A DNA stretch of 64,000 bases, taken from NCBI RefSeq assembly GCF_009914755.1, contig NC_060930.1; one strand, 5' to 3'. The notes beneath the pieces were generated by a model. It saw only the letters and a program-made list of their open reading frames with translations. It did no database searches and was not told where the DNA came from. The position numbers and the translations under genes are program-made. Origin of the DNA: the human T2T-CHM13v2.0 reference genome, Homo sapiens. Shown here one piece after another: positions 13,603 to 54,811 of this stretch (position 1 is its first letter; every line of letters begins with the position of its first letter).

Positions 13603-13890
<288 letters not shown>

Positions 13891-14088
13891 TCATTGTAGA
13901 AAAAAAGTCTACATCATTTCTAATAGAAAGCAAACACCTGAATACGAATAATGGTATTAAGCAACAATTTTTAAAATATTATTTTCCTGAATTAATTGTA
14001 AATAGGTATTTTAATTTTCTACCTTAAGTATTATGATCAGAAAAGTAGCTGCTTTAAATTTTCTCTGAAACAAGTAAGGGATTATACA

Positions 14089-14411
14089 CAGGAGTCCCCT
14101 CTTATTTGCAATTTTGCTTTCCATGGTTTCAGTTACCTGTGGTCAACCTGACTCCAAAAATGCTGTTCCAGAAATAAACAACTCATAAGTTTAACTGTGC
14201 ACTGTTCCAAAATGCATAATGAAATCACGTGCCATCTCACTTGGGACACAAATCATCCCTTTGTCCAGCATATCCACATTGTCTAGATATGCTACCCACC
14301 CATTACTGTATAGGAAAAACACAGTGTGAATAGGGTTTGGTACTTTCCAAGGTTTTAGACATCCATTTGGAGTCATGGAACATATTCCCTGTGGATAAGA
14401 GGAGGCTACTG
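14089..14411 (+). mobile_element. MER44A-like non-autonomous Tigger-family DNA transposon
   Basis: TIR-like ends caggagtcccctcttat / ataagaggaggctactg; internal atcatccctttgtccagc and tataggaaaaacacagtg. Confidence 0.85.
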
Positions 14412-14832
14412 TGTAGAAAAGCTACCACTAAAAATAAGCTATTCAATATTCAATTTTAAATTAAATGGTAACATCAAATCTAGTCATAAATCATTCAACA
14501 GTATTTTTACTTCCACAGAGCTACCATGCTTTATCTTAAATCCTTAGGTATACAGTAAGTATGATTTGTGTAATATTACTATAAAAATCACATAAGATTT
14601 TCTAAGGGTTAATAAGCATTTTCTCTAAATGTTTTGAGATGATATAAAATTATTAATATAAACTCAACCAGGACATAAATTTTATTATATAAAATTTCAC
14701 TGGTTAATTTGCAATTTTTTAAACTAAATTATAAACTACTCAATATTTACTATCATAACCTTTTATACCATTCCACCACAAGTAAGCAATTTAATTCTTT
14801 TAGTCACTAATCTTAAAGTTGGGGTCTTTAAC

Positions 14833-14978
14833 TGCTGAGCAAAGTGGCAGGGCATATGCCTGTAGTGCCACCTGCAGTTATTTAGCAGGCTGAAATGAGA
14901 GGATTGTTTGAGCCCACGAATTCAAAGCCAGTCTAGGCAACATAGTGAGACATTTCACCCCTACTCTGTAAAAAAAAG
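14833..14978 (+). mobile_element. FLAM (free left Alu monomer)
   Basis: tgcctgtagt...gaggattgtttgagccc...ggcaacatagtgagac followed by an A tail. Confidence 0.75.
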
Positions 14979-15399
14979 CCCCCCAAAAACTGGACAGGAT
15001 CTTTAATAAAAAACATTAACTACAATCAGGTAATATAATACATTTTTAAGAGCCACATGAAAGCCACAGATTTGTACCCTAGATAAGTACGTATTATCTA
15101 TATTAAAAAAACATTTTACATAATTTCAGAGTCCCACTATGGATAACATCTTCCATCTCCAGTTTATATACCCCAAGTTAAGAATTCCAATCTAGATTGC
15201 CCCAGGAGGCTAAGAGTTATTTTTTTCCTGAAATATGCAGATTTTCAAATAATAAGCCCTATTAAAGTGAGATTTAACTGCTGTCTTCACCTTCCTTTCC
15301 GAAACTAAGTCTCCAGACTACTTAACACAAGATTCTTCGAATTTTATCCTGAATGTAAAGATGCTGATTCTCACCCACTCCAAAAACATACAACCCCTA

Positions 15400-15609
<210 letters not shown>

Positions 15610-16093
15610 CTACCATTAAAATGAAAAGAATTGGTCACTATTATTACAATAATTTTAAGATAAAAGCATACATCCTAATGAAGTGAAGATTAAGTAAAAC
15701 AAGCATTGTACAGTAATAAAATTTATGAATATTCATGAAAAGTGCCAGATTAATAGCCTTGAAAAATAAAGTATTCTATCCACAGACCAAACACAATTCA
15801 GGAAATAAAAGAATACCAACTCCCCCACCCATAGAATTCTGCTTCATGTTTTAAACTCAGATTTAACACATAATTATGTCTTACACTCCATCTATCTCCG
15901 TTCAATCATGCCCTTTCTGCAAAAGCTGACATGTAGCAACTGTACGGATTTTTTGGTAATTCTTGGAAGTAGTAGCCAGAGATCATTGCTCAAATGACAC
16001 TAGATTTTATTATTTTTGGTAATAAATTCCCTGGTAGTCTGACTCGTCTTTTAAATGGTGAATTTCAAAGGTTAAAGAAAAGGTTTTTTTTAC

Positions 16094-16255
16094 CTGATAA
16101 TTGTTTTCTGTTTTCCAGTTCCATTAATCCAGAACGAATGGGTTTCCTCCCTGCAACCTGTCAATCAAACAGAGGTGGCCAATCACCACTCTGAATTTTT
16201 TGCTCTCAGTGCTTCTTCAGACTATGTTCCAGTTGAAAACTTCTTTAGCAGTGTT
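16094..16255 (-). other. Candidate 162-nt poison (NMD) cassette exon in intron 15
   Basis: Acceptor tttttacctctttcag, donor TATCAG|gtaaaa; in phase 0 reads NTAKEVFNWNIV* with TGA at 16219-16217. Confidence 0.5.
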
Positions 16256-19200
16256 CTGAAAGAGGTAAAAATTCTACCCTATCTAAAGCACATCTAGGGA
16301 CTGAATTTCAGAAACAACTAAAATAGGGAGTTGACTCCCTAACAAATAACAACTAAGGATGATTTTCAACAAATGCTGTTGGATTTCTGGATTAGCAGAA
16401 TCGGAACACACACACATTATCAGGTAAGAAATACCTCCTTTCTGTTCCGGTATCCACTGATCTAGAACAAATTGAGCTTTATTAGTAATATCCCAGGAAA
16501 TGCTTGGAAAAGAGAAAGGTAGTAACTTTCTTTCTTTAGTATTAAAAATGTGGCATAAGGATGGATGTACAGTTCACCAAATGCAGAAGTTAAAATTCAG
16601 AAGAAGAATAACTGATTTCTCAAGGAAGGTTTGCATTTTGGTAAAAAGAGAAAATATTTCTATAAAAGAAAGGACTTTACCTAAGAAGTTAATACAATAC
16701 CACAAATGGGATTGCCTCAAAAAGAAAGCTAGCTTTTTCCTTTGGCTTGCTAAAAAGAAGAAATGTGTGCAACAGTGCTTATTAATGCTCTTTTGGATGG
16801 TTACAATAATAGAAAAGAAAGAATAACTTTTTAAAAAATGTAACCATATTAGATAAAACTAGGAAAATTACCTAATGTTTAATATACACAAAAACTTAGA
16901 AAAGAAAGGAAATGAATCATAAGTGAAACAGGATTATATCTCGAGTGTGAAGAAAGTTGGAGGATGATAAGATAGGAGAAGAAGGTAACTGATTCCAAGT
17001 CTACTTTAAAACAATTCAAAAACAAGAAAGAATATAACTATTTCTCCAGATTACCATAAGGGCACCAGGAGCCATACAGCTAGGCATTTGCCAAAAATGA
17101 AAGACTATAAGTACAAATTCAGGATTCAAGTCTTTATTTTTCAGTGTTTTCCTAGGCAAATAAAAAAAAAAGTTACATGAACTGTTATAAATAAGCAACC
17201 ACATGAACAAAGTACACCTCTAAATAGACTTTTATATCAAAAACTAAAAATTAGGGGATTGAAACTGCCTTAGCCATGTGTTGTTAAATGATTTTTTTTT
17301 AACTCAGTTCACTCAAAATTTCACAGAAGCCAAGAGAGAGAACAAAAAAGCAACTACTTTATAAATCTACTCTAATAAATGTTTCCAGAAGTATAATTAC
17401 AAGTCTAAGATTACAATTTGAAGTAGAGTGGAGACTTGAAAGTAGTCCAATTTAGCAATTTCAAAGGAAATCTGATAAATGTTCCTAAGCATGGTATCCT
17501 TCATGTGTTGTTTAAACAAACATTTTTTCTTTTTGGGGGTGAGGGTTGCGGGGCAAGTAGGACTGATCAACCCTTGACCCTATTATTTATCAATGTTGCC
17601 ACATTTACAGTTAGTAGATCTCTAAAATAATCTTGGGGACAGTTGAAGCTTATAAAGCTCTAAAAGAGCAAAGAAAAAATAGCAATCATATTTAAGATGC
17701 CTGTGTGTCCTATATAACACATTTCATTGTGAATATGGCAAGACAGTATTAATTTTCTTGGTATAAGGCATCTGTTTAACTCCAAAGTGACTTTTATATG
17801 GAGAAAATGAAAGTATATTTCAATCATATCAGAAAAAAGAAAAGGATATTATTTGGATTAACCATTTGTTTACTAAAGGAGGCATTAAAAGAATCTGCTT
17901 TACTCATGAACCAGTTAGAAAAGGTGCCTCTAACTTCATCAATTAAAAGACCAACTCTCTATTTATTAATAGATCCTCAGACAATAAACACCCATATCTA
18001 TAAACTGCAGACTAGGTTTTCCAGACCAGGCTTCCAAACAGTTGATGATATAAAACAGGAAAATATTTTACTTTCTCTATATTAACTAAAAATAGCCTAA
18101 CTGGTTTTAAAATGTATGGTACGATTAAGTAAGCCAATCAAAAGAAAAGAATTTTATCTTTTTAAACAAGGGTCAAAGTATTTATGAGTAAGAATTCTCA
18201 AAGACAAAATTTTAAATGAAGGCACTATTTGAATATTCACATCTACTAGAAAGCAGTAAGGTTTATCTTCAAAAACGAAAAGAAAATACCCTCTCTCACC
18301 AAATGAAAGGTATATAAGCCTATCATAAAATTAAATGCACTGCGTATCAAGAAAATGTGTCAACATAAAATTTAATACTACATATAGCTTATGCTAGCTA
18401 GCACTTACTGCAGTTGTAGTAAAATAATTAGAAATAGAGTGAAACTAATAAGTAATGAGAAATTATCAAAATAAGTGCATTTTAGATGAACTATTCCTCT
18501 AATAAAATCAAGTATGCTTGTTATGCATTCTTTTGGATATATAGAAATAAAGACCACATAAAGCTCATAGACATTAAATATCAATAAGGTTTAGCTGAGA
18601 TAATCTATGAGACAGTATTTACCAGTAACTGTGAAAACTTCAAAAAGAATAAGAGGAGTAAAAAGAAAATAAAAGTATATTCAGCAATTATTGTATTTTG
18701 TTTTATTTTTAAAAGGAGGAGATGGGAGGATCAGATGTGTTAAAATAATGACTCCCTTATTTGAAAATTCTCATACTGACTAAAGAATTCTATAAATACT
18801 ACCAATAAATGAGTAGTATAAACTTGTTAGGCATTTAGAGATTTATACTAAACTTTAAAGAAATTAAATGATACAAAAACTTATGAGCTAAGAGCTCTGA
18901 TGAGGACTCATTAAGGAAAGAATACTAATACCTTTTTTGAGGGAAGGTACTATACACAACTAACATAATTTTCCTGAAGCAGAAAGATGAATGATTAGAC
19001 AGAGGAATGAGGTCGAAGACCCAAGACATCTCTCCATCAGTAATAGGTAAATCACCTAATCTCTGTGGAATGATGGAGATAAATGATCACTAGAATCCAG
19101 TTCTAAAATCCTACCATCTGAGGTTCTGAAAGGTATGTTGAAAAAAACTGGACAAATCTGGAGATGAAGTATATTAAAAGCAGAATGCATACTAAAATTC

Positions 19201-19632
19201 AGGATCTCAATTATATCAATCATGAAGAATATACAGAGAGTGAATATGAGAAGTATATGCTTCTAGAAAACCTTAACACAAAGTAGGAAGGTTAAAAAAT
19301 ATGGGCTATCTTAGGCAGAACCATCCTCTTCTAGAGTTATTTCAATTCTATTAGCAGGGTCAGTATGTCTTGTTCTTTTTTTTTTTTTTTTTTTAAGCAC
19401 ACCGTTCATTAGAAGAAAGCATCTTACCTAGGAAATACTCCAAAATTTTAAATTATGTATGCAACTTTTAAAATACCCTAAAATAATCTTATGAAATGGA
19501 CTCATATACCAAGAATGAAAAGAGGTGATAAATGGAATTTATGCTAAGAATAACCCTTAAGAAGTCCTTCCTTATGTATTAAAAAAACTTTTAGATTAGA
19601 GCTTGCCAACCTAGGGAAAAATATGTAAACTA

Positions 19633-19922
<290 letters not shown>

Positions 19923-20289
19923 TCCAAATTCCAACAGTTCAGGTGTTATCAAATTACTTTAAAATAGTTATTGCATGGCTGTTTTAATCTTGAAAATTCT
20001 TTAACTTATGCCAACATAAAAAAGGAAACTGCTGGACCTGACTTGATAAAAATCAGTAGATCAGATTATTACATAAAATGAAAAAAAAATTATTATATAA
20101 AAGTGATTCTGAAAAATCAGCTCTAGATTTTCATCAAAAGAAAAATATTACCAAAATAAATATCTTCAAATTTAACATCATTTTGTACCCATATTATGAT
20201 TTCTCTGGGGAGAGCAATACTATTGATTAGGCCTTCCTTGAGGCTTATTTTCTTTTGGTCTTTTTGGCATATTAGCATGGTGTGTCTTC

Positions 20290-21378
20290 CTTGACACACC
20301 CTCTAAGGATTGTGACCCCTTTTCCATTCTGCTAAATATATGAGTATTTCCCAAAGTTTACTTCTAAGCCTTCTGCACTTCCTTCTCCTGTCTCCACGAG
20401 AAAGTAAACTATATACTATAAGAAACACTTCAACACTTTCTTCTTTTTACTCCTAGCCCCTCTAAGTAGTCTATCTCCAAGTGCCAGCTGGCCATTTCCA
20501 CATAGGTAGTTCAACGCAATAAACATTATTACAAATGAACTGAATAAAGAAGTCAGTTCTCCCTTATGTCTTTCATATTTCCACTAATAAAACCATTGTT
20601 CTCAAGGTCACCCGGGCTTAACACTCTATAAACCCATTTATTAAATCTTTCCTCCCTGTCATCCTATAGCCCAAATCCTAATATAGTCACAAAACACCAA
20701 GTCATTTATGTATTTTTTTCTTTACAAATTTCCTACCAACTACCCCTATAATATTTCATGACTAATTAAAGTAGTTGTCCTCACACTTATTCAATGTCAT
20801 ACCTGAAATTGTACTACTGGCAACCAAACTATTTTTCTCTTAGCTTCTCGACCATCCTATAAAATAATTTACTAAAGCCCCCACAAGGTTCATAGGTATT
20901 TATGCCTATGAGATCATTTGAAGTCACTGACAGTTCATCTCAATTTGTTTTTCGTCATTATTTCCAAAATCTACTGCAATCAAGCTTCCTAAATATCTAA
21001 ATTTCTATGAACATGTCTTGACACTTAGCTTTTTATAATGTTCCTCTTGTTTATAAAATTCATTCTCTTTCTTACTGACTCGATTCCTATTTATCTTTCA
21101 AGGCATAGTTTCAATTCCTTCTCCTCAACAAAACGTCTCCAATCGTCCACCCTGACAATGATCTCTACATCTTAAGATACAGCAACTGTCTTTTCTCATT
21201 TGTCATGCTACTGTTTGAAATTATTTATCAATATTTATCCCTTAAGGTATATTTTGTATATTTTGTCTCCCCAACTTAACTGTAGGCTGACTAAAAAGAC
21301 CACGTCTTATTCTCCCTTGTGGTCCTCATATTTTGTGCTTAACACAAAAGAAAACACTCAAATATTTGTTAAAATGTT
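20290..21378 (+). mobile_element. Diverged L2 fragments
   Basis: CT-rich L2-like stretches ending tgcttaacacaaaagaaaacactcaaatatttgttaaaatg. Confidence 0.45.
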
Positions 21379-21774
21379 TTCATCTGCATGTTTAAATTCT
21401 GTATAATTTCATATACCTTCTCATATAACTATCAAATCTCAAATACCCTTGTGATAGCAAGTCATGGACTATGTCAAAGAATTACTACATAAAAGTAATT
21501 TACCACATATAATGCAGTGTGAGAAGCTGGAGAGACAAACTCACATTCATGGCAACAGATTAACATGCCTTTTGTACCAAGATATATATATATAAGAGAG
21601 ATATAATCTAAAGAATCTTAAAAGCTGAAAGAAAGTGATAATTACTAAAGTGTATGGTAAGAAGACCGAAAGTACTTCCTTACCCAAAGAAGCTGAAACA
21701 TAGACTGGAAGCATCAGAGAGTCCTTTTAACACAGAGAGTATAAATATAGGACATTATCTTGTTAGATGATGAT

Positions 21775-21870
21775 AGGAAGAAAGAAGGAAGGAAAGAAGG
21801 GAGGAAGGGAGGGAGGGAGAAAGGGAGGGTTGGGTGAGGGAGAAAAGAAAAGAAAGAGAAAGAGAGAGAC
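21775..21870. repeat. Purine-rich (GGAA/GGGA/GA)n low-complexity tract
   Basis: ggaagaaagaaggaaggaaagaagggaggaagggagggaggg...gagagagac. Confidence 0.9.
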
Positions 21871-24769
21871 TCTTCTCCTGATTAATAAGAGATAACACAA
21901 TATGAGCTGTACCTATTTTGAGCTTCTCTTTCTCCCTTTCCTAGATACATACAGCTACAATTATCTAAAACTAAAGTACAGGTCACACTGAGAACATGTT
22001 AACATCAGAAGAAGTATGCATGTACAAAAATTCTGGGTGGTAGATTGGCAGCCTCTGCTCGTTTGGAACGTTGCAAGGAGAAATATATTGTTCTGGATTA
22101 GTGGACACTGGAACTTTTTTTTTTTAAAAAAATCTCTTAAGTAAAAGAAAGGTTAAGAGAACAATTATAAAAATAAGGAAAACTTTAATCAAATAAAAAC
22201 TTATTTGGAATTTACCCATGAAACAACAAAAGTAAAGCAAAAATCAAATTCAGTAAAACTGCTTTCTATTAAGAGACATACTATACTCTTTGATTAAAAT
22301 GAAAACCAGACAGGAGGCAACAAACTACAGCTTTGAGTAATGACAGAAATAGAAAGATATGGAAAGAGAGATAGAGACACAGCTAGGGCTATAGAGAAAA
22401 GAAAGAGTAAGAGAAATAAAGCAAAACCGCCAGAAACATGAGGAAAGCTACTAAAAACATGGGGTCTACAAATTCAACTCCAAGCATCTCTTATTTACTA
22501 TTTAATATTCAAATGGCCTAGTACTAAGAAATGTGAAAAGTCTCTATCTTTTCAAATTAATTTAATATTCATTTAGTTAAACTCGTAGTTAAAACTTAGC
22601 TGTCCGGTGCTAATTTAATGGGGAATAAAAGACCATAAAACAATTTATATTTAGGAACATTTAAGGTTATAATTAACTTCTAAACCTGGCGACCTCTTTC
22701 ACAGAAGGCCCTCAGCTTCAGTCCTGAGAGTTGCACACATTTTCAAGCTATTTCTGGGAATTATTTATCTGCCTTTTAGCATTTAATGGGAGTATAGAGC
22801 CTTTAGAGTTTAGAACAACTCTCATCAAAACAAAGCTATTCTGATGTTTACCTCCTGCCAATGCCAAACAAAAGTGGGCTTACTAAGTTATACCCAACTA
22901 TTATAGTTTGGAATATTCTTAATATACACTACTTGCTTCAGTAAAATATCCAAATATATACTACATTTCCTCTGAATACTCAAGTTATGTAAGGACTGTT
23001 CAGTTGATTCGTAAAGAAATAAAAGTACTGAAGGCCTAGAATGTAGTTTGTTTGTTTTTAAAGAATAAAGTTGTCTCATAATATTTTCTACAAAATTCTC
23101 TTTGGTTTCTTCTCCTGTTCACTTAAAAAAGAAAAACAACAACAACAAAAAGAACCACAAAGGCTTTCCCAATAAGTGCTTTTAAAAGTTTTTAGTTAAA
23201 GATGAGACAACAGAAAGGGTAGGGGGAGTACAAGCTACATATACTGTCTATTCCATTTCATGCCCTATGTTAGCCTCTTTTAAAACATCATCTCACGTGT
23301 CATATACTTCTTATAAGTAACAAAAACAAACCCAGCACCCACTCCCCAACTGCTTTTATCATTGAGATCCTCTATTAGGAGGAAAGTTAGCAGTAAAAAC
23401 AAGAAAAATAAACCCCTCAGTTTCTCTGGAGAATACTACTTGAAAGTTGAGAATCCATTTATAAGATTTCAGAATGAAGTAAATTATTTAAACATAAAAG
23501 AACTAAATAGCTTTATCTCAATTCCCAATCTCAAACTCTTTAATTTGCTGACAAATTTAGATGGTCCCAAAATAAAGCACAAGAAATTTTTAAAAGTATA
23601 AGTCATGGCTTGATACAGAAAAAAATTAGAATACTTATTACAATGATGACTATCAGTGCAATATTAAAATATTAATGTTTTATAATCTTATATTTAAAAA
23701 TTATTAAAATGTAATTACTATGTATCAAACAGGCATTTGAAAGTTCACCTTTTCACTTGAAAGGCTTTTTAACATAACAGGATTTTTGGCTATTTCTAAA
23801 ATTTCAAAAAAAGAATTTACATTTCCATAATTACACAAAAAATGCAGTAAAATGCTGATGAATACAAAATACTAAATTATATGTTACATGATTTCCATTA
23901 TCTTTTGCAAAGGTATAAATTTCCAATGGAAAATTCAATTATTATTCAAAAAGCAGGAGAAATATTAAAGTATTCTTAAAATATACTTGATAAAAACCAG
24001 TATTTAAGAAATTTGTACTAAAACTGTTATTCTAAAGGTATAGTCTACATTCCTTATTTTCTAGCTGTAGGTGGAATGGTGAGTTTACTTATCTGTTTTA
24101 TAAACTTCAGTTTTAACAGTCACATGAAATATTATTTAATCTTAAAAATACTTCACATAACTTTCACCATTTCTAGTCAAAAAAGGAGTATTCCACCAGA
24201 ATTCTTCATCCTCTAATAGACCAAAGCACTATATATGACTAGACCCTTCACATGGTGCTCAAAAAATATTTACTAAACTGAACTTGTGATTACTACTACA
24301 ACTTAACATTAGGGATTAAATTTGTATGCAATCAAGTATCGTGGTATTTTAGTAACTGAAAAACTTATTGATTAGCTACAGAGAGCCAAATAGCTATAAT
24401 TATAGCCAAAACTCAACATTCATGATAGCAAGCAGTGAGAACGCAGGCCCTCCCTCGAATTGTTTCTCTTTATTTTCTTAATAGCAATGCTGGATGCTTT
24501 ATCTTCCATTTGCCCATAAATAAAACAAGCAATGAAAAGAACAAAAGAGTGAAGAGCAAAAAGAATTAGGGCAATTAGATAACTCATAAAAGACAGACAG
24601 GAAAAAAAATCAAGTTAAAGAGTAAGATGTCAAAAGATCCACTCGGATTTATTACCATTATGAAAACATTTCTTCATGGACATATCACTAACTGAGTATT
24701 GTTAAAAGTTAGCTATGCAGTAACATTGACAAAAGCTCAAAAAGCCAACCATGACAAGATTTGAGTACA

Positions 24770-24975
24770 ACCAGAGTCATGGGTTTATGCTCCAAGTGCC
24801 CGCATAATAGCTGTGTGAACTCAGTAAATTGGGGCAAAGCACTTTATCTCTGTAATGTACAGTTTCTCCATTCCTAAGACCAAGAATAATAAAATCTATC
24901 TTGATCATCTTACAAGGTTTTCATGAGACCCAAAGGAGGTAAAATATGTGGGAGCATTTTGGAAACCATTAAACA
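24770..24975 (+). mobile_element. MIR
   Basis: atagctgtgtgaac...ggggcaaagcactttatctctg...cagtttctccatt...aaggttttcatgagac. Confidence 0.6.
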
Positions 24976-26696
24976 TCATACAAAAAATTAAAGGTAGTAT
25001 CTTTATTTTAATGAGATGAAGGGTGGCTCACTTTCTGTTTTTTAGCTTTTTTGGTTTATGTTTTGCTCACTGTCTGCAATTCTATGAATACTATCCAATT
25101 CAACTTATTACATGTATTTGTTTCTTCTGCTCTTTAGAGTTTTCCTATCTCTTATCCATAAAAAGAACCAGAAAAATATCCTCATCTAACACTCTTATTT
25201 AACAATAAACAATTTTTAAGGCAGTAATGTAACCAATCCCTCAGCTAATTTTTAAAAATATACAATATATTATGGCTGACTTCTACTCCTGGTTACATTA
25301 CTAATTTTTAATGGTCTAAGAGCAAATCACTTAACTCTCAAGGTGCTGCAGTTTTTGTTATCTACTGAAAAGGTAGAATATTAGTGTGACCAACTTACCT
25401 GATAAGGGAAAATTCACCTTTATATAACTGAAAAGTTAAAGCGGTATTCAATTATGGGAGAAAAGTTTCCCTCCAAACACTCTACCAATATAATAATGTC
25501 CTTTGGAAATACAAAACTACTAAATGAAGCCACTAGTATATATATAGCTCACATATTATTTTTTTTAAGCTATAAAGACAGATTGAGAAATGACTAATTT
25601 CCTTATTCAACAGATATTCCAAAAAGGAGCAAATCAGAAACACAAGGATAGAAAAGAAGAAAATATTTTTTACTAGCATATTTACAGGTGGCTTTTTAAA
25701 AAAATCTCAATACAATCACAAAGGAAATCCATCCATCACTAACAAGTGCACACCAAATAAACAACACTGTTTTCTAGAAATAGAGGGTTTTACAAACCTT
25801 ATTTCTTACCTAATGTATTCTAAGGCACAGCCTTAAAGATAGCTAAAGCTATTTCCCTCACTAAAAAATCTGCTATTATATCTGCTTACTCACGACATAG
25901 AAATAACTTTACTCTGATTATCAATCAAGCATAGCATCACATTCGTGTAATTTTTTCACAAACCATGTTTCACAACTGTTTTGTGAAATAATTTATTTGG
26001 CAAAATAATTCTGACCACATGTACTAATTGTATTGTTTTATGGTTCATTACTAAAGATTTCTATAATTGGTTTTTTAAAAAAATTTAAACATGCTGAAAT
26101 AGTGGAAACTGTTTTTTCTTTTGTTCTTTGTTGAAAGGTATCTCTAATATACAGAAAGTAGACATTTAAAAAATATGACTACACAAACTGCAGTAGTTGA
26201 GGAGACCTTAATACTTCATACAGTAAATAGAAACACTGCTCGGTAAGTTGTATGTGATATATTAAAACATTGTAATTCAAATACTTGGCCAATTATGTTA
26301 ACATCTAAGAAACAAAATGTGAAGAGAAGAGTATAAACTCAAATATTTAATATACTACCAATTGATTAAAAGCAAGAAATGCTTGATTCTTTGGCCTTAA
26401 TTTTAAAATCAGTGTACTTGAGTAAAATTCTATTATGCTAGAAGACTATTAAACAAGTACAATAATACGAGTATTTATTTATAATTTCTTCACATGGTTT
26501 TCCAAGTATTTTTTCTTCTCTATATTGTATCTTCATACTTGTGAATTTCCAAAGTTTCACTGCTAAAACTGATAAAACTGTATCAGTTATCACAATGTAC
26601 AGGCACTGTAATATGCACAATTAATTTTCTTTTAAATTCAGCATGTCAATAAAAGTGTGGAATAAATCATTCTTTATTGATGGGAATTTAAAGTCA

Positions 26697-26966
<270 letters not shown>

Positions 26967-29068: not shown

Positions 29069-29109
29069 CTGTTACTAGTGTTGGAAAACTGGATACTGTC
29101 AACTTTGTC
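29069..29109 (-). CDS. PHIP: PHIP coding exon (~exon 12), 41 bp, DKVDSIQFSNTSN(R); preceded by a 96-bp intron
   Basis: Acceptor tttatatatag, donor AG|gtaaaa; needed to keep the frame between its neighbours. Confidence 0.95.
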
Positions 29110-30811: not shown

Positions 30812-30882
30812 CAGCACTAAAAGAAGAACAGATCATTTGAACTCCAGGCCGAGGGCGCTCTGTAAATTTTGCAGGTCTTGGG
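30812..30882 (-). CDS. PHIP: PHIP coding exon (~exon 10), 71 bp, [23 protein letters not shown](G)
   Basis: Acceptor tattacag, donor G|gtaagt; matches ORF 30792..30974. Confidence 0.96.
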
Positions 30883-31853
30883 CTGTAATACAAAAAATAA
30901 AGAATTAAAAATATCCTAAAGGAACCAGTAGCAGCAGAAATAATCTGTTTCAAAAAATAATCCCAGAAGGACAAAATTAAGAAGCAACAGATGGCTCCCT
31001 TCCTAAAAACAACTTAGAAATCATTATGTGTCATAAATCAGAAGATCTTGTAGAAATTCTAGATATAGATTTTGTAGGAGCTCCTTATTACACAACAATA
31101 CGTACATGGAACAATTCCAAATTCACTGTCACACCAGACATGCAGTTACTAGTTACACTTACTTCTAATCAAATTTAACATGTTCTCAGTTTTTCATATA
31201 GAATAGCAACGTACAAACATATAAGGAACTAAGCTATTCGCAAACATGAATACATTAGCAAAATAGGTGCTGTCTGTGCCTTATGTATACCATCAATAAC
31301 TGAACTTTTTCAGTATTTTACATTAATTAAGCTTTTCCCTTCTTTGACCTACTAATGTGATAAAACATGTCTTTTAAGACCCCAAAAAGTAGGGATATTA
31401 CATTTAACCTAGTGAAAATCTGAAGATACTTTGACTCTTACGTCAACTACAATGAATGCTCATTCAAAATAGCAGTCTACAGAAAACAGGTTACCCACAG
31501 CTGTATTTACATTAATTGCCTAACTGTATTACAGATTACATATTTTATATCAATACTACTGATATTAAATGTTTAATGTTACAGTCAACCAATTAGAGAA
31601 AATGAAGATTTTTATCATGACACCAGCTCTAATACATTTAACAATGTGTATGTGATGTTCCAATATACTGATTATATTTGAAGCCCTACTTACTGTACAT
31701 TTTGGCATAGTTCTTCTACACTATTTGATGAAATGCAAAAATAATTAGAGCTTAAGCCTATATAACTTTCACAATATATAACAAATTTAGAGCAGTTTTA
31801 GTTTTGTGATCATTTACTGGAAAAAAGTATATACATAAAATATTTCTGAGCTA

Positions 31854-31956
31854 TAGGTTGGTGCAAAAATAATTGCGGTTTTGCCTTTTTTTAAAAAAAA
31901 AGCTTTTTACCATTAAAATAATGGCAAAAACTGCAATTATTTTTGCACCAACCTAA
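31854..31956. mobile_element. MADE1 (Hsmar1-derived MITE), palindromic, with extended centre
   Basis: taggttggtgcaaaaataattgcggttttgcc ... ggcaaaaactgcaattatttttgcaccaacctaa followed by TA. Confidence 0.92.
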
Positions 31957-32348
31957 TATATATTCTGAGCAAAGAGAATTATCTTTTTTACTGATACAGA
32001 ATGCAACAAAATGTTAAGAATTTAAAAAATAAGTTTGTAAATAGTTTTACATTAGTATTTACAGCAAATTCTATTAATATTCACAGGCTCTAATGTAACA
32101 GATGAGCAGAACAAATCTCATTTAGAGAGACAGATATTAGAACATTCTTAAAACCTAAACATTTATTCAGAGCAAAATTAACTGTAATTTAAGTAAATTA
32201 ATCTGAATTATGAAGGCAACTAAATGCATTGCTTTCATTACTACCTTATGGATTATAGCTCTAGATTTTTTTTAATTTTTGGTACATCTGCTCACATAAG
32301 TTCCAAGCAACCATTTACCTGAAACTCATTACAAAAATATGCAAATAG

Positions 32349-37178: not shown

Positions 37179-37355
<177 letters not shown>

Positions 37356-37612: not shown

Positions 37613-37936
<324 letters not shown>

Positions 37937-54550: not shown

Positions 54551-54811
<261 letters not shown>

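What the first reader, a model, noticed from the sequence alone, without database searches (positions are those of the whole stretch)
16094..16255. Candidate poison exon built from the DIRS 3' ITR
Seen: on the PHIP sense strand a good acceptor (tttttacctctttcag) and a donor (TATCAG|gtaaaa) bracket 162 nt, 514 nt upstream of the exon-16 acceptor. The intron is phase 0, so inclusion reads ...YFNM-NTAKEVFNWNIV-stop. The stop lies 123 nt before the exon's own 3' junction and would cut the WD40 propeller. Established: such stops trigger nonsense-mediated decay, and PHIP haploinsufficiency causes Chung-Jansen syndrome. Inference: an exapted transposon terminus may act as a dosage rheostat, and could be a target for splice-switching oligos or a site of deep-intronic pathogenic variants. 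A weaker alternative acceptor AG at 16241-16240 would give a 146-nt frameshifting version.
Basis: partly seen in the sequence, partly recalled or inferred. Interest (0 to 1): 0.8.

Follow-up and report, generated by a model that had tools for sequence, protein, structure and literature searches.

The report
Known PHIP poison exon, wrong boundary

Summary
By a crude splice-site matrix the pair is not special. 16 AG..GT pairs in the window are as good on both sites, and only 2 are annotated exons.

The donor, however, is real and already known. A published table (PMC13078869) lists a GENCODE v43 cassette exon at hg38 chr6:79004373-79004436, flagged NMD_in. It maps exactly to window 16094-16157. 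It shifts the frame and gives a TGA three bases into exon 16.

The 63-nt mouse orthologue rises from PSI 0.17 to 0.45 with cycloheximide (PMC11188260). The same table already pairs the exon with Chung-Jansen haploinsufficiency.

The 162-nt form is in none of the tables I could read. Nothing supports a DIRS origin. The exon's 3' part and donor do lie in one arm of a real ~60-nt inverted repeat, whose other arm supplies the donor of an antisense lncRNA model.

Verdict: already known, with wrong boundary and origin.

The parts
16094..16157 (-). The documented human PHIP poison cassette exon ('exon 15a'), 64 nt. It shifts the frame.
   Evidence: PMC13078869 supplement file 3, sheet 6, row 40 gives hg38 chr6:79004372:79004436:-, In.GENCODE43=1, NMD_in. 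Starts in that table are 0-based: its 161-nt control exon and the MANE exon list in PMC12096787 agree. This maps to 16094-16157, flanked by AG and GT in the window.
16088..16096 (-). 5' splice site CAG|gtaaaa (GT at 16093-16092).
   Evidence: The same 9-mer is the donor of the constitutive exon 29069-29109. Predicted pairing probability is about 1.0 with 16417-16426.
16158..16177 (-). 3' splice site of the documented exon: cacctctgtttgattgacag, with AG at 16159-16158.
   Evidence: matrix score 0.96, and 346 of 4243 AG sites score at least as high. This is within the range of the 14 annotated exons (-5.3 to 7.2).
16158..16255 (-). Its acceptor AG is at 16257-16256 and its in-frame TGA at 16219-16217. 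Use is not documented.
   Evidence: The sequence is. The acceptor scores 5.56. No junction to it is among the 3 unannotated PHIP rows of PMC8091538. Its hg38 positions give 0 hits in the PMC13078869 supplements.
15575..15577 (-). Premature TGA created in exon 16 when the 64-nt exon is included. It lies about 125 nt upstream of the exon 16/17 junction.
   Evidence: first stop at nt 201 of the joined exons, exon 16 ends at nt 328.
16076..16135 (.). Left arm of an imperfect inverted repeat. On the PHIP RNA it is the 3' arm and covers the last 42 nt of the 64-nt exon, the donor and 18 nt of intron.
   Evidence: The local-alignment score is 47 against shuffles of 24.8 +/- 4.5, with 1 of 300 shuffles and 3 of 245 window tiles as high.
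16385..16443 (.). Right arm of the inverted repeat. On the PHIP RNA it lies about 230 nt upstream of the 16157 acceptor. It carries the mirrored motif TTATCAG|GTAA on the plus strand.
   Evidence: The RNA fold of 16060-16460 (minus strand) has z -3.89, and 0 of 100 shuffles are as stable.
15573..16423 (+). Exon 1 of the predicted antisense lncRNA LOC124901346. Its donor CAG|gtaaga at 16423/16424 sits in the right repeat arm.
   Evidence: The hub's RefSeq table; sequence. The donor scores 6.89, and 6 of 2742 plus-strand GT sites score at least as high.
26805..26939 (-). PHIP exon 15 (135 nt), the upstream constitutive exon. It ends in phase 0.
   Evidence: hg38 79015082-79015216.
15451..15579 (-). 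PHIP exon 16 (129 nt), the downstream constitutive exon.
   Evidence: hg38 79003730-79003858.

Best explanation
The donor at 16094 is the 5' splice site of a known cassette exon in PHIP intron 15 that couples alternative splicing to nonsense-mediated decay (NMD).

In human the exon is 64 nt (window 16094-16157, hg38 chr6:79004373-79004436). When it is spliced between exon 15 and exon 16 the frame shifts by one base. A TGA then appears at 15577-15575, three bases into exon 16 and about 125 nt before the next exon junction. The transcript is therefore a predicted NMD substrate, and every inclusion event lowers productive PHIP mRNA.

The 63-nt mouse orthologue is included at roughly 0-50% across tissues and is stabilised when translation, and so NMD, is blocked.

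What is shown and what is inferred:
Its use is not shown.
- The frame consequence is shown by the sequence.
- Annotation in human, and inclusion and cycloheximide sensitivity in mouse, rest on published tables.
- NMD of the human isoform and any dosage-setting role are inferred.
For: - **Published human annotation.** PMC13078869 supplement file 3 lists a mouse Phip cassette between the orthologues of the 129-nt and 135-nt exons, flagged NMD_in. It is marked present in GENCODE M25, seen in E14.5 and E18.5 long reads, marked NMD_in in the Yan 2015 column and 1 in the Zhuravskaya 2024 CHX column. The lifted human exon is chr6:79004372:79004436:-, with In.GENCODE43=1 and NMD_in under GENCODE v38 and v43.
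- **Coordinate mapping.** The table's other PHIP row gives 161 (end minus start) for the 161-nt exon 54563-54723. The MANE exon list gives 79015082-79015216 and 79003730-79003858. So starts in the table are 0-based. The cassette falls on 16094-16157, exactly between an AG and a GT, with the same 514-nt downstream intron.
- **Frame consequence.** 64 nt shifts the frame, with the first stop at nt 201 of the joined exons and the exon 16/17 junction at nt 328.
- **Mouse NMD evidence.** In PMC11188260 supplement file 7, the 63-nt cassette chr9:82798015-82798077 has PSI 0.446 with CHX against 0.170 without on day 0, and 0.342 against 0.164 on day 3. It is labelled 'Stimulating' and CHX-validated TRUE, and the gene rises log2 0.575 and 0.485 with CHX.
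- **Site strength.** The donor 9-mer is identical to that of constitutive exon 29069-29109. The acceptor score of 0.96 lies inside the range of the 14 annotated exons.
- **Possible human CHX data.** A 2026 preprint (10.64898/2026.01.19.700316) reports a PHIP NMD-inclusion event with PSI 4-29% in DMSO and 33-49% with CHX in human iPSC-derived brain cells. The magnitudes resemble the mouse exon, but the text gives no coordinates.
Against: - RefSeq RS_2025_08 has no such exon in any of its 4 PHIP transcripts (hub table).
- I could not open GENCODE, GTEx or any junction database. The human annotation is known to me only through one hidden sheet of one supplement.
- In that sheet the GTEx-based human flag for this exon is #N/A.
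- I found no human CHX or NMD-knockdown data tied to these coordinates. The preprint's PHIP event may be another exon, such as the 69-nt exon 37a of PMC8091538, and its supplements are closed.
- PHIP is absent from the 8 supplement files of the Lim 2020 TANGO catalogue and is marked 'No' for that catalogue in PMC12096787.
- Yan 2015 (PMC4371929) is not held, so its listing is second-hand.
- By site scores alone the exon is unremarkable: 90 AG..GT pairs in the window match or beat it on both sites.
Confidence: 0.85

Rival explanations
1. The reader's 162-nt exon (acceptor 16255, donor 16094) is itself used at a meaningful level. It would be an alternative 3' splice-site form of the poison exon and would poison through its own in-frame TGA.
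For: Its acceptor is much stronger by the crude matrix than the documented one: 5.56 against 0.96. 46 of 4243 AG sites score at least as high as 16255, against 346 of 4243 for 16157. It shares the proven donor. The in-frame TGA lies 123 nt before the donor.
Against: The published tables give only the 64-nt human and 63-nt mouse cassette. No junction to 16255 is among the 3 unannotated PHIP junction rows from deep EJC-bound RNA of HEK293 cells, a list that includes junctions with as few as 1-7 raw reads per replicate. Its hg38 positions 79004534 and 79004535 give 0 hits in the PMC13078869 supplements. By eye, three AGs lie within 30 nt upstream of the 16255 acceptor and the only perfect yUnAy branch motif is about 11 nt from the site. 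This suggests weak branch-point architecture, but it was not scored.
Confidence: 0.15
2. Nothing functional is here. The AG..GT pair is one of many unused intronic pseudoexons, and the annotated transcript is splicing noise without regulatory meaning.
For: Pairs of this strength are common. 16 pairs match the 162-nt form and 90 match the 64-nt form, against 14 annotated exons in the window. RefSeq omits the exon. The GTEx flag is #N/A.
Against: A cassette at the lifted-over position is used in mouse at PSI of about 0.16-0.30 in embryonic brain and up to 0.52 in one adult cortex sample. It rises strongly with CHX in two time points. Use at the lifted-over position with nearly the same length (63 against 64 nt) in two species argues against noise.
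Confidence: 0.07
3. The exon is an exapted terminus of a DIRS retrotransposon.
For: Only that the exon's 3' part lies in one arm of a real inverted repeat.
Against: The arms are about 60 nt and 249 nt apart, not flanking a multi-kilobase element. None of 62 scanned open frames of 45 aa or more in intron 15 matches reverse transcriptase, RNase H or a tyrosine recombinase. 12 of the 62 have only sub-threshold chance matches, best E 0.01. No long-range inverted partner of 16094-16255 exists in 13846-26804. DIRS1-like elements were undetected in 37 mammalian genomes (PMC3266345, passages read).
Confidence: 0.02

Closest known systems
Mouse Phip 63-nt AS-NMD cassette exon (mm10 chr9:82915962-82916024; mm39 chr9:82798015-82798077), with its human GENCODE counterpart
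   Same: Same intron, between the 135-nt and 129-nt exons. The distance to the downstream exon is nearly the same (537 against 514 nt). Both are flagged NMD_in.
   Different: The human exon is 64 nt, so it poisons by frameshift; the mouse exon is 63 nt. I could not see the mouse sequence.
PHIP exon 37a, a 69-nt conserved poison exon in intron 37 (Kovalak et al. 2021, PMC8091538)
   Same: Same gene, same logic (a cassette exon that triggers NMD), and proposed as a dosage control.
   Different: A different intron, outside this window (hg38 chr6:78946538-78946607). It is in frame with three stop codons rather than a frameshift.
SCN1A exon 20N and other poison exons targeted by splice-switching oligonucleotides (TANGO approach)
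   Same: A naturally included NMD exon in a haploinsufficiency disease gene, so blocking it could raise productive mRNA. The supplement sheet that lists the PHIP exon also gives Chung-Jansen syndrome and ClinGen haploinsufficiency score 3 for the gene. The preprint proposes a PHIP event as a target in its text.
   Different: No oligonucleotide test for PHIP was seen in any passage or table I read. PHIP is not in the Lim 2020 catalogue as held.
Exons whose 5' splice site is masked by a long-range RNA stem (recalled examples: MAPT exon 10 stem-loop, SMN2 exon 7 terminal stem-loop 2; from memory, no call)
   Same: The donor here is predicted to be fully base-paired. Its mean pairing probability is 0.86, above all 14 constitutive donors of the window, which range from 0.33 to 0.80.
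   Different: The evidence here is thermodynamic prediction only. The stem partner lies about 320 nt upstream, not next to the site. No covariation or mutational evidence exists.

Membership tests
AS-NMD poison cassette exon | Both splice sites are used in vivo, so the exon appears in real transcripts. | not testable with these tools
   No junction database is at hand. From print, the 64-nt exon is marked In.GENCODE43=1, and the mouse orthologue is marked present in GENCODE M25 and in E14.5/E18.5 long reads. Nothing comparable exists for the 162-nt form.
AS-NMD poison cassette exon | Inclusion creates a stop codon more than about 50-55 nt upstream of a later exon junction. | tested here: met
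   For the 64-nt form the stop is at nt 201 and the exon 16/17 junction at nt 328. For the 162-nt form the stop is at nt 171 and the exon's own 3' junction at nt 297.
AS-NMD poison cassette exon | The inclusion isoform rises when NMD or translation is blocked. | not testable with these tools
   In mouse, PSI is 0.170 rising to 0.446 and 0.164 rising to 0.342 with CHX (PMC11188260 supplement). In human, a PHIP NMD-inclusion event rises from 4-29% to 33-49%, but its coordinates are not given.
AS-NMD poison cassette exon | Splice sites and exon are conserved across species (expected of regulated, not noisy, poison exons). | tested here: inconclusive
   The mouse exon lifts over onto an annotated human cassette of nearly equal length. 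No mammalian genome is available here to check the GT and AG bases or the exon sequence.
DIRS (tyrosine-recombinase) retrotransposon terminus | Remnants of reverse transcriptase, RNase H or tyrosine recombinase coding sequence lie next to the terminus. | tested here: not met
   62 of the 66 stop-to-stop frames of 45 aa or more in 15580-26804 were scanned against Pfam. The 4 that overlap exons 15 or 16 were left out. There were 0 such domains, and 12 frames had unrelated sub-threshold matches. Frames shorter than 45 aa were not scanned.
DIRS (tyrosine-recombinase) retrotransposon terminus | Inverted terminal repeats flank a multi-kilobase element. | tested here: not met
   Only 4 inverted pairs of 28 nt or more lie in 13846-26804. 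The only one touching the locus has arms 292 nt apart.
DIRS (tyrosine-recombinase) retrotransposon terminus | The family is present in the host lineage. | not tested
   From print, it was undetected in 37 mammalian species (PMC3266345). I did not screen the human genome myself.
Hairpin-like non-autonomous DNA transposon (MITE) | Terminal inverted repeats. | tested here: met
   The arms are 16076-16135 and 16385-16443, with a score of 47 against shuffles of 24.8 +/- 4.5 and 1 of 300 shuffles as high.
Hairpin-like non-autonomous DNA transposon (MITE) | Many related copies in the genome, and target-site duplications. | tested here: not met
   A BLAST-level search of the window's own genome with 16000-16500 found 1 place, which is itself. 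Old diverged copies would escape this search. By eye I saw no matching flanking duplication. No repeat-family library is available here.

The most novel reading that the evidence does not exclude
Inclusion of the poison exon is gated by RNA structure. The exon's last 42 nt and its 5' splice site form the 3' arm of an old ~60-nt inverted repeat. The 5' arm lies about 230 nt upstream of the acceptor. When the stem forms, it hides the donor from U1 and loops out both acceptors, which favours skipping and productive PHIP mRNA. Anything that opens the stem would raise poison-exon use. Candidates are helicases, transcription speed, or pairing with or transcription of the antisense lncRNA that uses the mirrored donor in the other arm.
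Probability: 0.15. Interest if true: 0.55.

Novelty: already known. Interest (0 to 1): 0.25.

Why it matters
PHIP loss of one copy causes Chung-Jansen syndrome. A naturally included NMD exon is therefore a plausible handle for raising PHIP output with a splice-switching oligonucleotide, and a place where deep-intronic variants could cause disease by increasing inclusion. That idea is sound, but it is already in published resources for this very exon.

This re-reading adds three practical points:
- **Correct exon.** The exon to target or screen is 16094-16157 (hg38 chr6:79004373-79004436), not 16094-16255.
- **Annotation gap.** RefSeq, on which many diagnostic pipelines rely, does not carry the exon.
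- **Predicted stem.** The donor sits in a strong predicted RNA stem with a mirrored antisense donor. This may matter for oligonucleotide design and for interpreting variants in either repeat arm.

Tried and rejected
- **Copies in the own genome.** A search for copies of 16000-16500 found only the locus itself. It gives no repeat-family assignment.
- **Rfam.** A scan of 15400-16700 at E up to 1 gave 2 chance-level matches (mir-725, 19.3 bits against a cut-off of 76; snoZ221, 18.4 against 44). Both were rejected.
- **False 'PHIP' hits.** Word-start searches for 'PHIP' mostly hit the author name Phipson. PMC13651330, PMC12023386, PMC13622835 and PMC12077678 held nothing on the gene. PMC13751310 and PMC13542418 had 0 whole-word hits in the main text.
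- **Unrelated PHIP variants.** PMC13042102 and PMC12987547 describe other PHIP splice variants (exon 6 skipping, c.4206+3A>G), unrelated to intron 15.
- **Coordinate search.** A full-text search for six coordinate strings of the exon found no relevant paper. Three were hg38 strings. Three were hg19 strings built from a recalled offset. The 1 hit was an unrelated number. Main texts therefore do not discuss the exon by coordinate, and supplements are not indexed by that search.
- **Papers and files I could not read.** Yan 2015 (PMC4371929) is not held. The supplements of the 2026 bioRxiv preprint are closed, so I could not tell which PHIP exon it reports. File 13 of the PMC11188260 supplements was not searched.
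- **Initial reading abandoned.** I first thought this was an ordinary unused pseudoexon, based on the matrix null. I dropped that after the supplement rows.
- **Not possible here.** No MaxEntScan, SpliceAI, Dfam/RepeatMasker, mammalian alignment or junction database was available.

Full report
**1. What is in the sequence**

- The acceptor tttttacctctttcag|AAC has its first exon base at 16255.
- The donor TATCAG|gtaaaa has its last exon base at 16094.
- The stretch is 162 nt and lies 514 nt upstream of exon 16.

Exon 15 ends ...YFNM with a complete codon. The 162 nt then read NTAKEVFNWNIV followed by TGA. All 14 annotated PHIP exons in the window have AG/GT borders, and one constitutive exon (29069-29109) uses the same donor 9-mer, CAG|gtaaaa.

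**2. Is the pair more than chance?**

I scored every AG and GT on the minus strand with a simple position-weight matrix. Its frequencies were recalled from memory, so the scores are only approximate.
- The donor is middling: 2.79, with 97 of 3600 GT sites at least as good.
- 16 AG..GT pairs of 50-250 nt equal or beat it on both sites. Of these, 2 are annotated exons, 1 is the candidate and 13 are unannotated.

So the sequence alone does not single this place out, and my first reading was 'ordinary pseudoexon'.

**3. What the literature holds**

Two reports concern PHIP poison exons without placing one in intron 15:
- A 69-nt conserved poison exon, 37a, in intron 37, outside this window (PMC8091538, passages read). 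That paper's supplement lists 3 unannotated PHIP junctions, and none is in intron 15.
- A 2026 preprint reports a 'newly identified abundant' PHIP NMD-inclusion event, with PSI 4-29% in DMSO and 33-49% with cycloheximide. Its text gives no coordinates and its supplements are closed.

The decisive rows are in the supplement of PMC13078869 (J Clin Invest 2026; file 3, TableS2a row 2406 and hidden sheet 6 row 40):
- A mouse Phip cassette lies between the orthologues of the 135-nt and 129-nt exons and is flagged NMD_in.
- It is marked as a UCSC cassette exon, present in GENCODE M25 and seen in E14.5 and E18.5 long reads.
- It is marked NMD_in in the 'Yan et al. 2015' column and 1 in the 'Zhuravskaya et al. 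2024 CHX' column.
- Its PSI is about 0.16-0.30 in embryonic brain and between 0 and 0.52 in adult tissues.
- The lifted human exon is chr6:79004372:79004436:-, with In.GENCODE43 = 1 and NMD_in under GENCODE v38 and v43. The GTEx-based flag is #N/A.
- The same row carries 'Chung-Jansen syndrome', pLI 1 and ClinGen haploinsufficiency score 3.

**4. Mapping to the window**

The table's starts are 0-based, on two grounds. Its other PHIP row gives end minus start = 161 for the 161-nt exon 54563-54723. The MANE exon list in PMC12096787 gives 79015082-79015216 and 79003730-79003858 for exons 15 and 16.

With 79003858 equal to window 15579, the cassette is window 16094-16157, which is 64 nt. It is preceded by AG at 16159-16158 and followed by GT at 16093-16092. 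The downstream intron is 514 nt, the same as in hg38.

**5. Consequence**

Sixty-four bases shift the frame. The first stop is a TGA at 15577-15575, three bases into exon 16 and about 125 nt before the exon 16/17 junction. By the established 50-55-nt rule this predicts NMD.

Direct evidence exists for the mouse orthologue (63 nt, mm39 chr9:82798015-82798077) in PMC11188260 supplement file 7:

| Time point | PSI with CHX | PSI without CHX | Gene change with CHX (log2) |
|---|---|---|---|
| Day 0 | 0.446 | 0.170 | +0.575 |
| Day 3 | 0.342 | 0.164 | +0.485 |

The event is labelled 'Stimulating' and CHX-validated TRUE. File 13 of that supplement was not searched.

The similar magnitudes make it likely, but not shown, that the preprint's human event is this exon.

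**6. The 162-nt form**

It would also be a poison exon, but I found no trace of it:
- It is not among the unannotated PHIP junctions of the deep EJC-bound RNA libraries, which list junctions with only 1-7 raw reads per replicate.
- Its hg38 positions do not occur in the PMC13078869 supplements.

Its acceptor is nevertheless the stronger one by my matrix, so low-level use as an alternative 3' splice site stays possible. I put this at about 15%.

**7. Origin**

The 'DIRS 3' ITR' claim fails every test I could run:
- None of 62 open frames of 45 aa or more in intron 15 matches a reverse transcriptase, RNase H or tyrosine recombinase. One search listed 66 frames, and I left out the 4 that overlap the flanking exons.
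- No long-range inverted partner exists.
- DIRS1-like elements were undetected in 37 mammals (PMC3266345).

There is, however, a real local inverted repeat, 16076-16135 against 16385-16443. Its alignment score is 47 against 24.8 +/- 4.5 in dinucleotide shuffles, with 1 of 300 shuffles as high. 3 of 245 window tiles score as high, and those 3 are overlapping tiles at one other place.

The region is single-copy at BLAST sensitivity in its own genome. Without a repeat library I cannot name a family.

**8. A structural hint**

- Folded as RNA, 16060-16460 (minus strand) is more stable than all 100 shuffles, with z -3.89.
- The donor bases 16100-16091 pair with 16417-16426 at a probability of about 1.0.
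- The mean pairing over the 9-nt donor is 0.86. That is above all 14 constitutive donors of the window folded in the same-sized context, which range from 0.33 to 0.80.
- The other arm carries the mirrored motif. On the plus strand it is the donor (CAG|gtaaga, score 6.89, with 6 of 2742 GT sites as good) of exon 1 of the predicted antisense lncRNA LOC124901346 (hub table).

Whether the stem forms in cells and limits inclusion is an inference that has not been tested.

**9. Verdict**

- It is wrong in boundary (64 nt with a frameshift, not 162 nt with an internal stop) and wrong in origin (not DIRS).
- The exon is already annotated and already listed as a splice-switching candidate.

Novelty: already known. 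What remains open are the predicted donor-masking stem and the possible longer isoform.

Noticed in passing
window 16385-16443 and 15573-16423 (+): The inverted repeat puts the same TTATCAG|GTAA motif on both strands. The minus-strand copy is the poison-exon donor. The plus-strand copy (16423/16424) is the donor of exon 1 of the predicted antisense lncRNA LOC124901346, whose 5' end lies 7 nt inside PHIP exon 16.
   Followed up: partly
window 30883-54562 (-): PMC8091538's supplement lists an unannotated junction, hg38 chr6:79019160-79042842. It joins the donor of exon 54563-54723 to the acceptor of exon 30812-30882. This skips exons 37667-37888 and 37243-37343 (323 nt, a frameshift). It was seen in EJC-bound RNA with 3-7 raw reads per replicate.
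   Followed up: no
window 54563-54723 (-): The PMC13078869 supplement flags skipping of this 161-nt exon (hg38 79042843-79043003) as NMD_ex. Mouse PSI is about 0.79-1.0.
   Followed up: no
window about 31201-32240: This is by far the strongest inverted repeat of the window, with a local-alignment score of 122 in two overlapping tiles. The window median is 26. It lies beside stretches that the hub lists as masked repeats. I did not examine it.
   Followed up: no
window 19798-19867: Two tandem 35-nt copies, 94% alike, of an Alu-like GGAGGCGGAGGTTGCAGTGAG stretch lie inside the masked repeat 19673-19934. The Alu label is recalled, not tested.
   Followed up: no
PHIP gene as a whole (outside the finding): PMC12096787's table marks PHIP 'Yes' for deep splice variants and 'No' for the Lim et al. 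TANGO catalogue. The positions of those deep-intronic variants were not visible, so I could not check whether any lies near 16060-16460.
   Followed up: no
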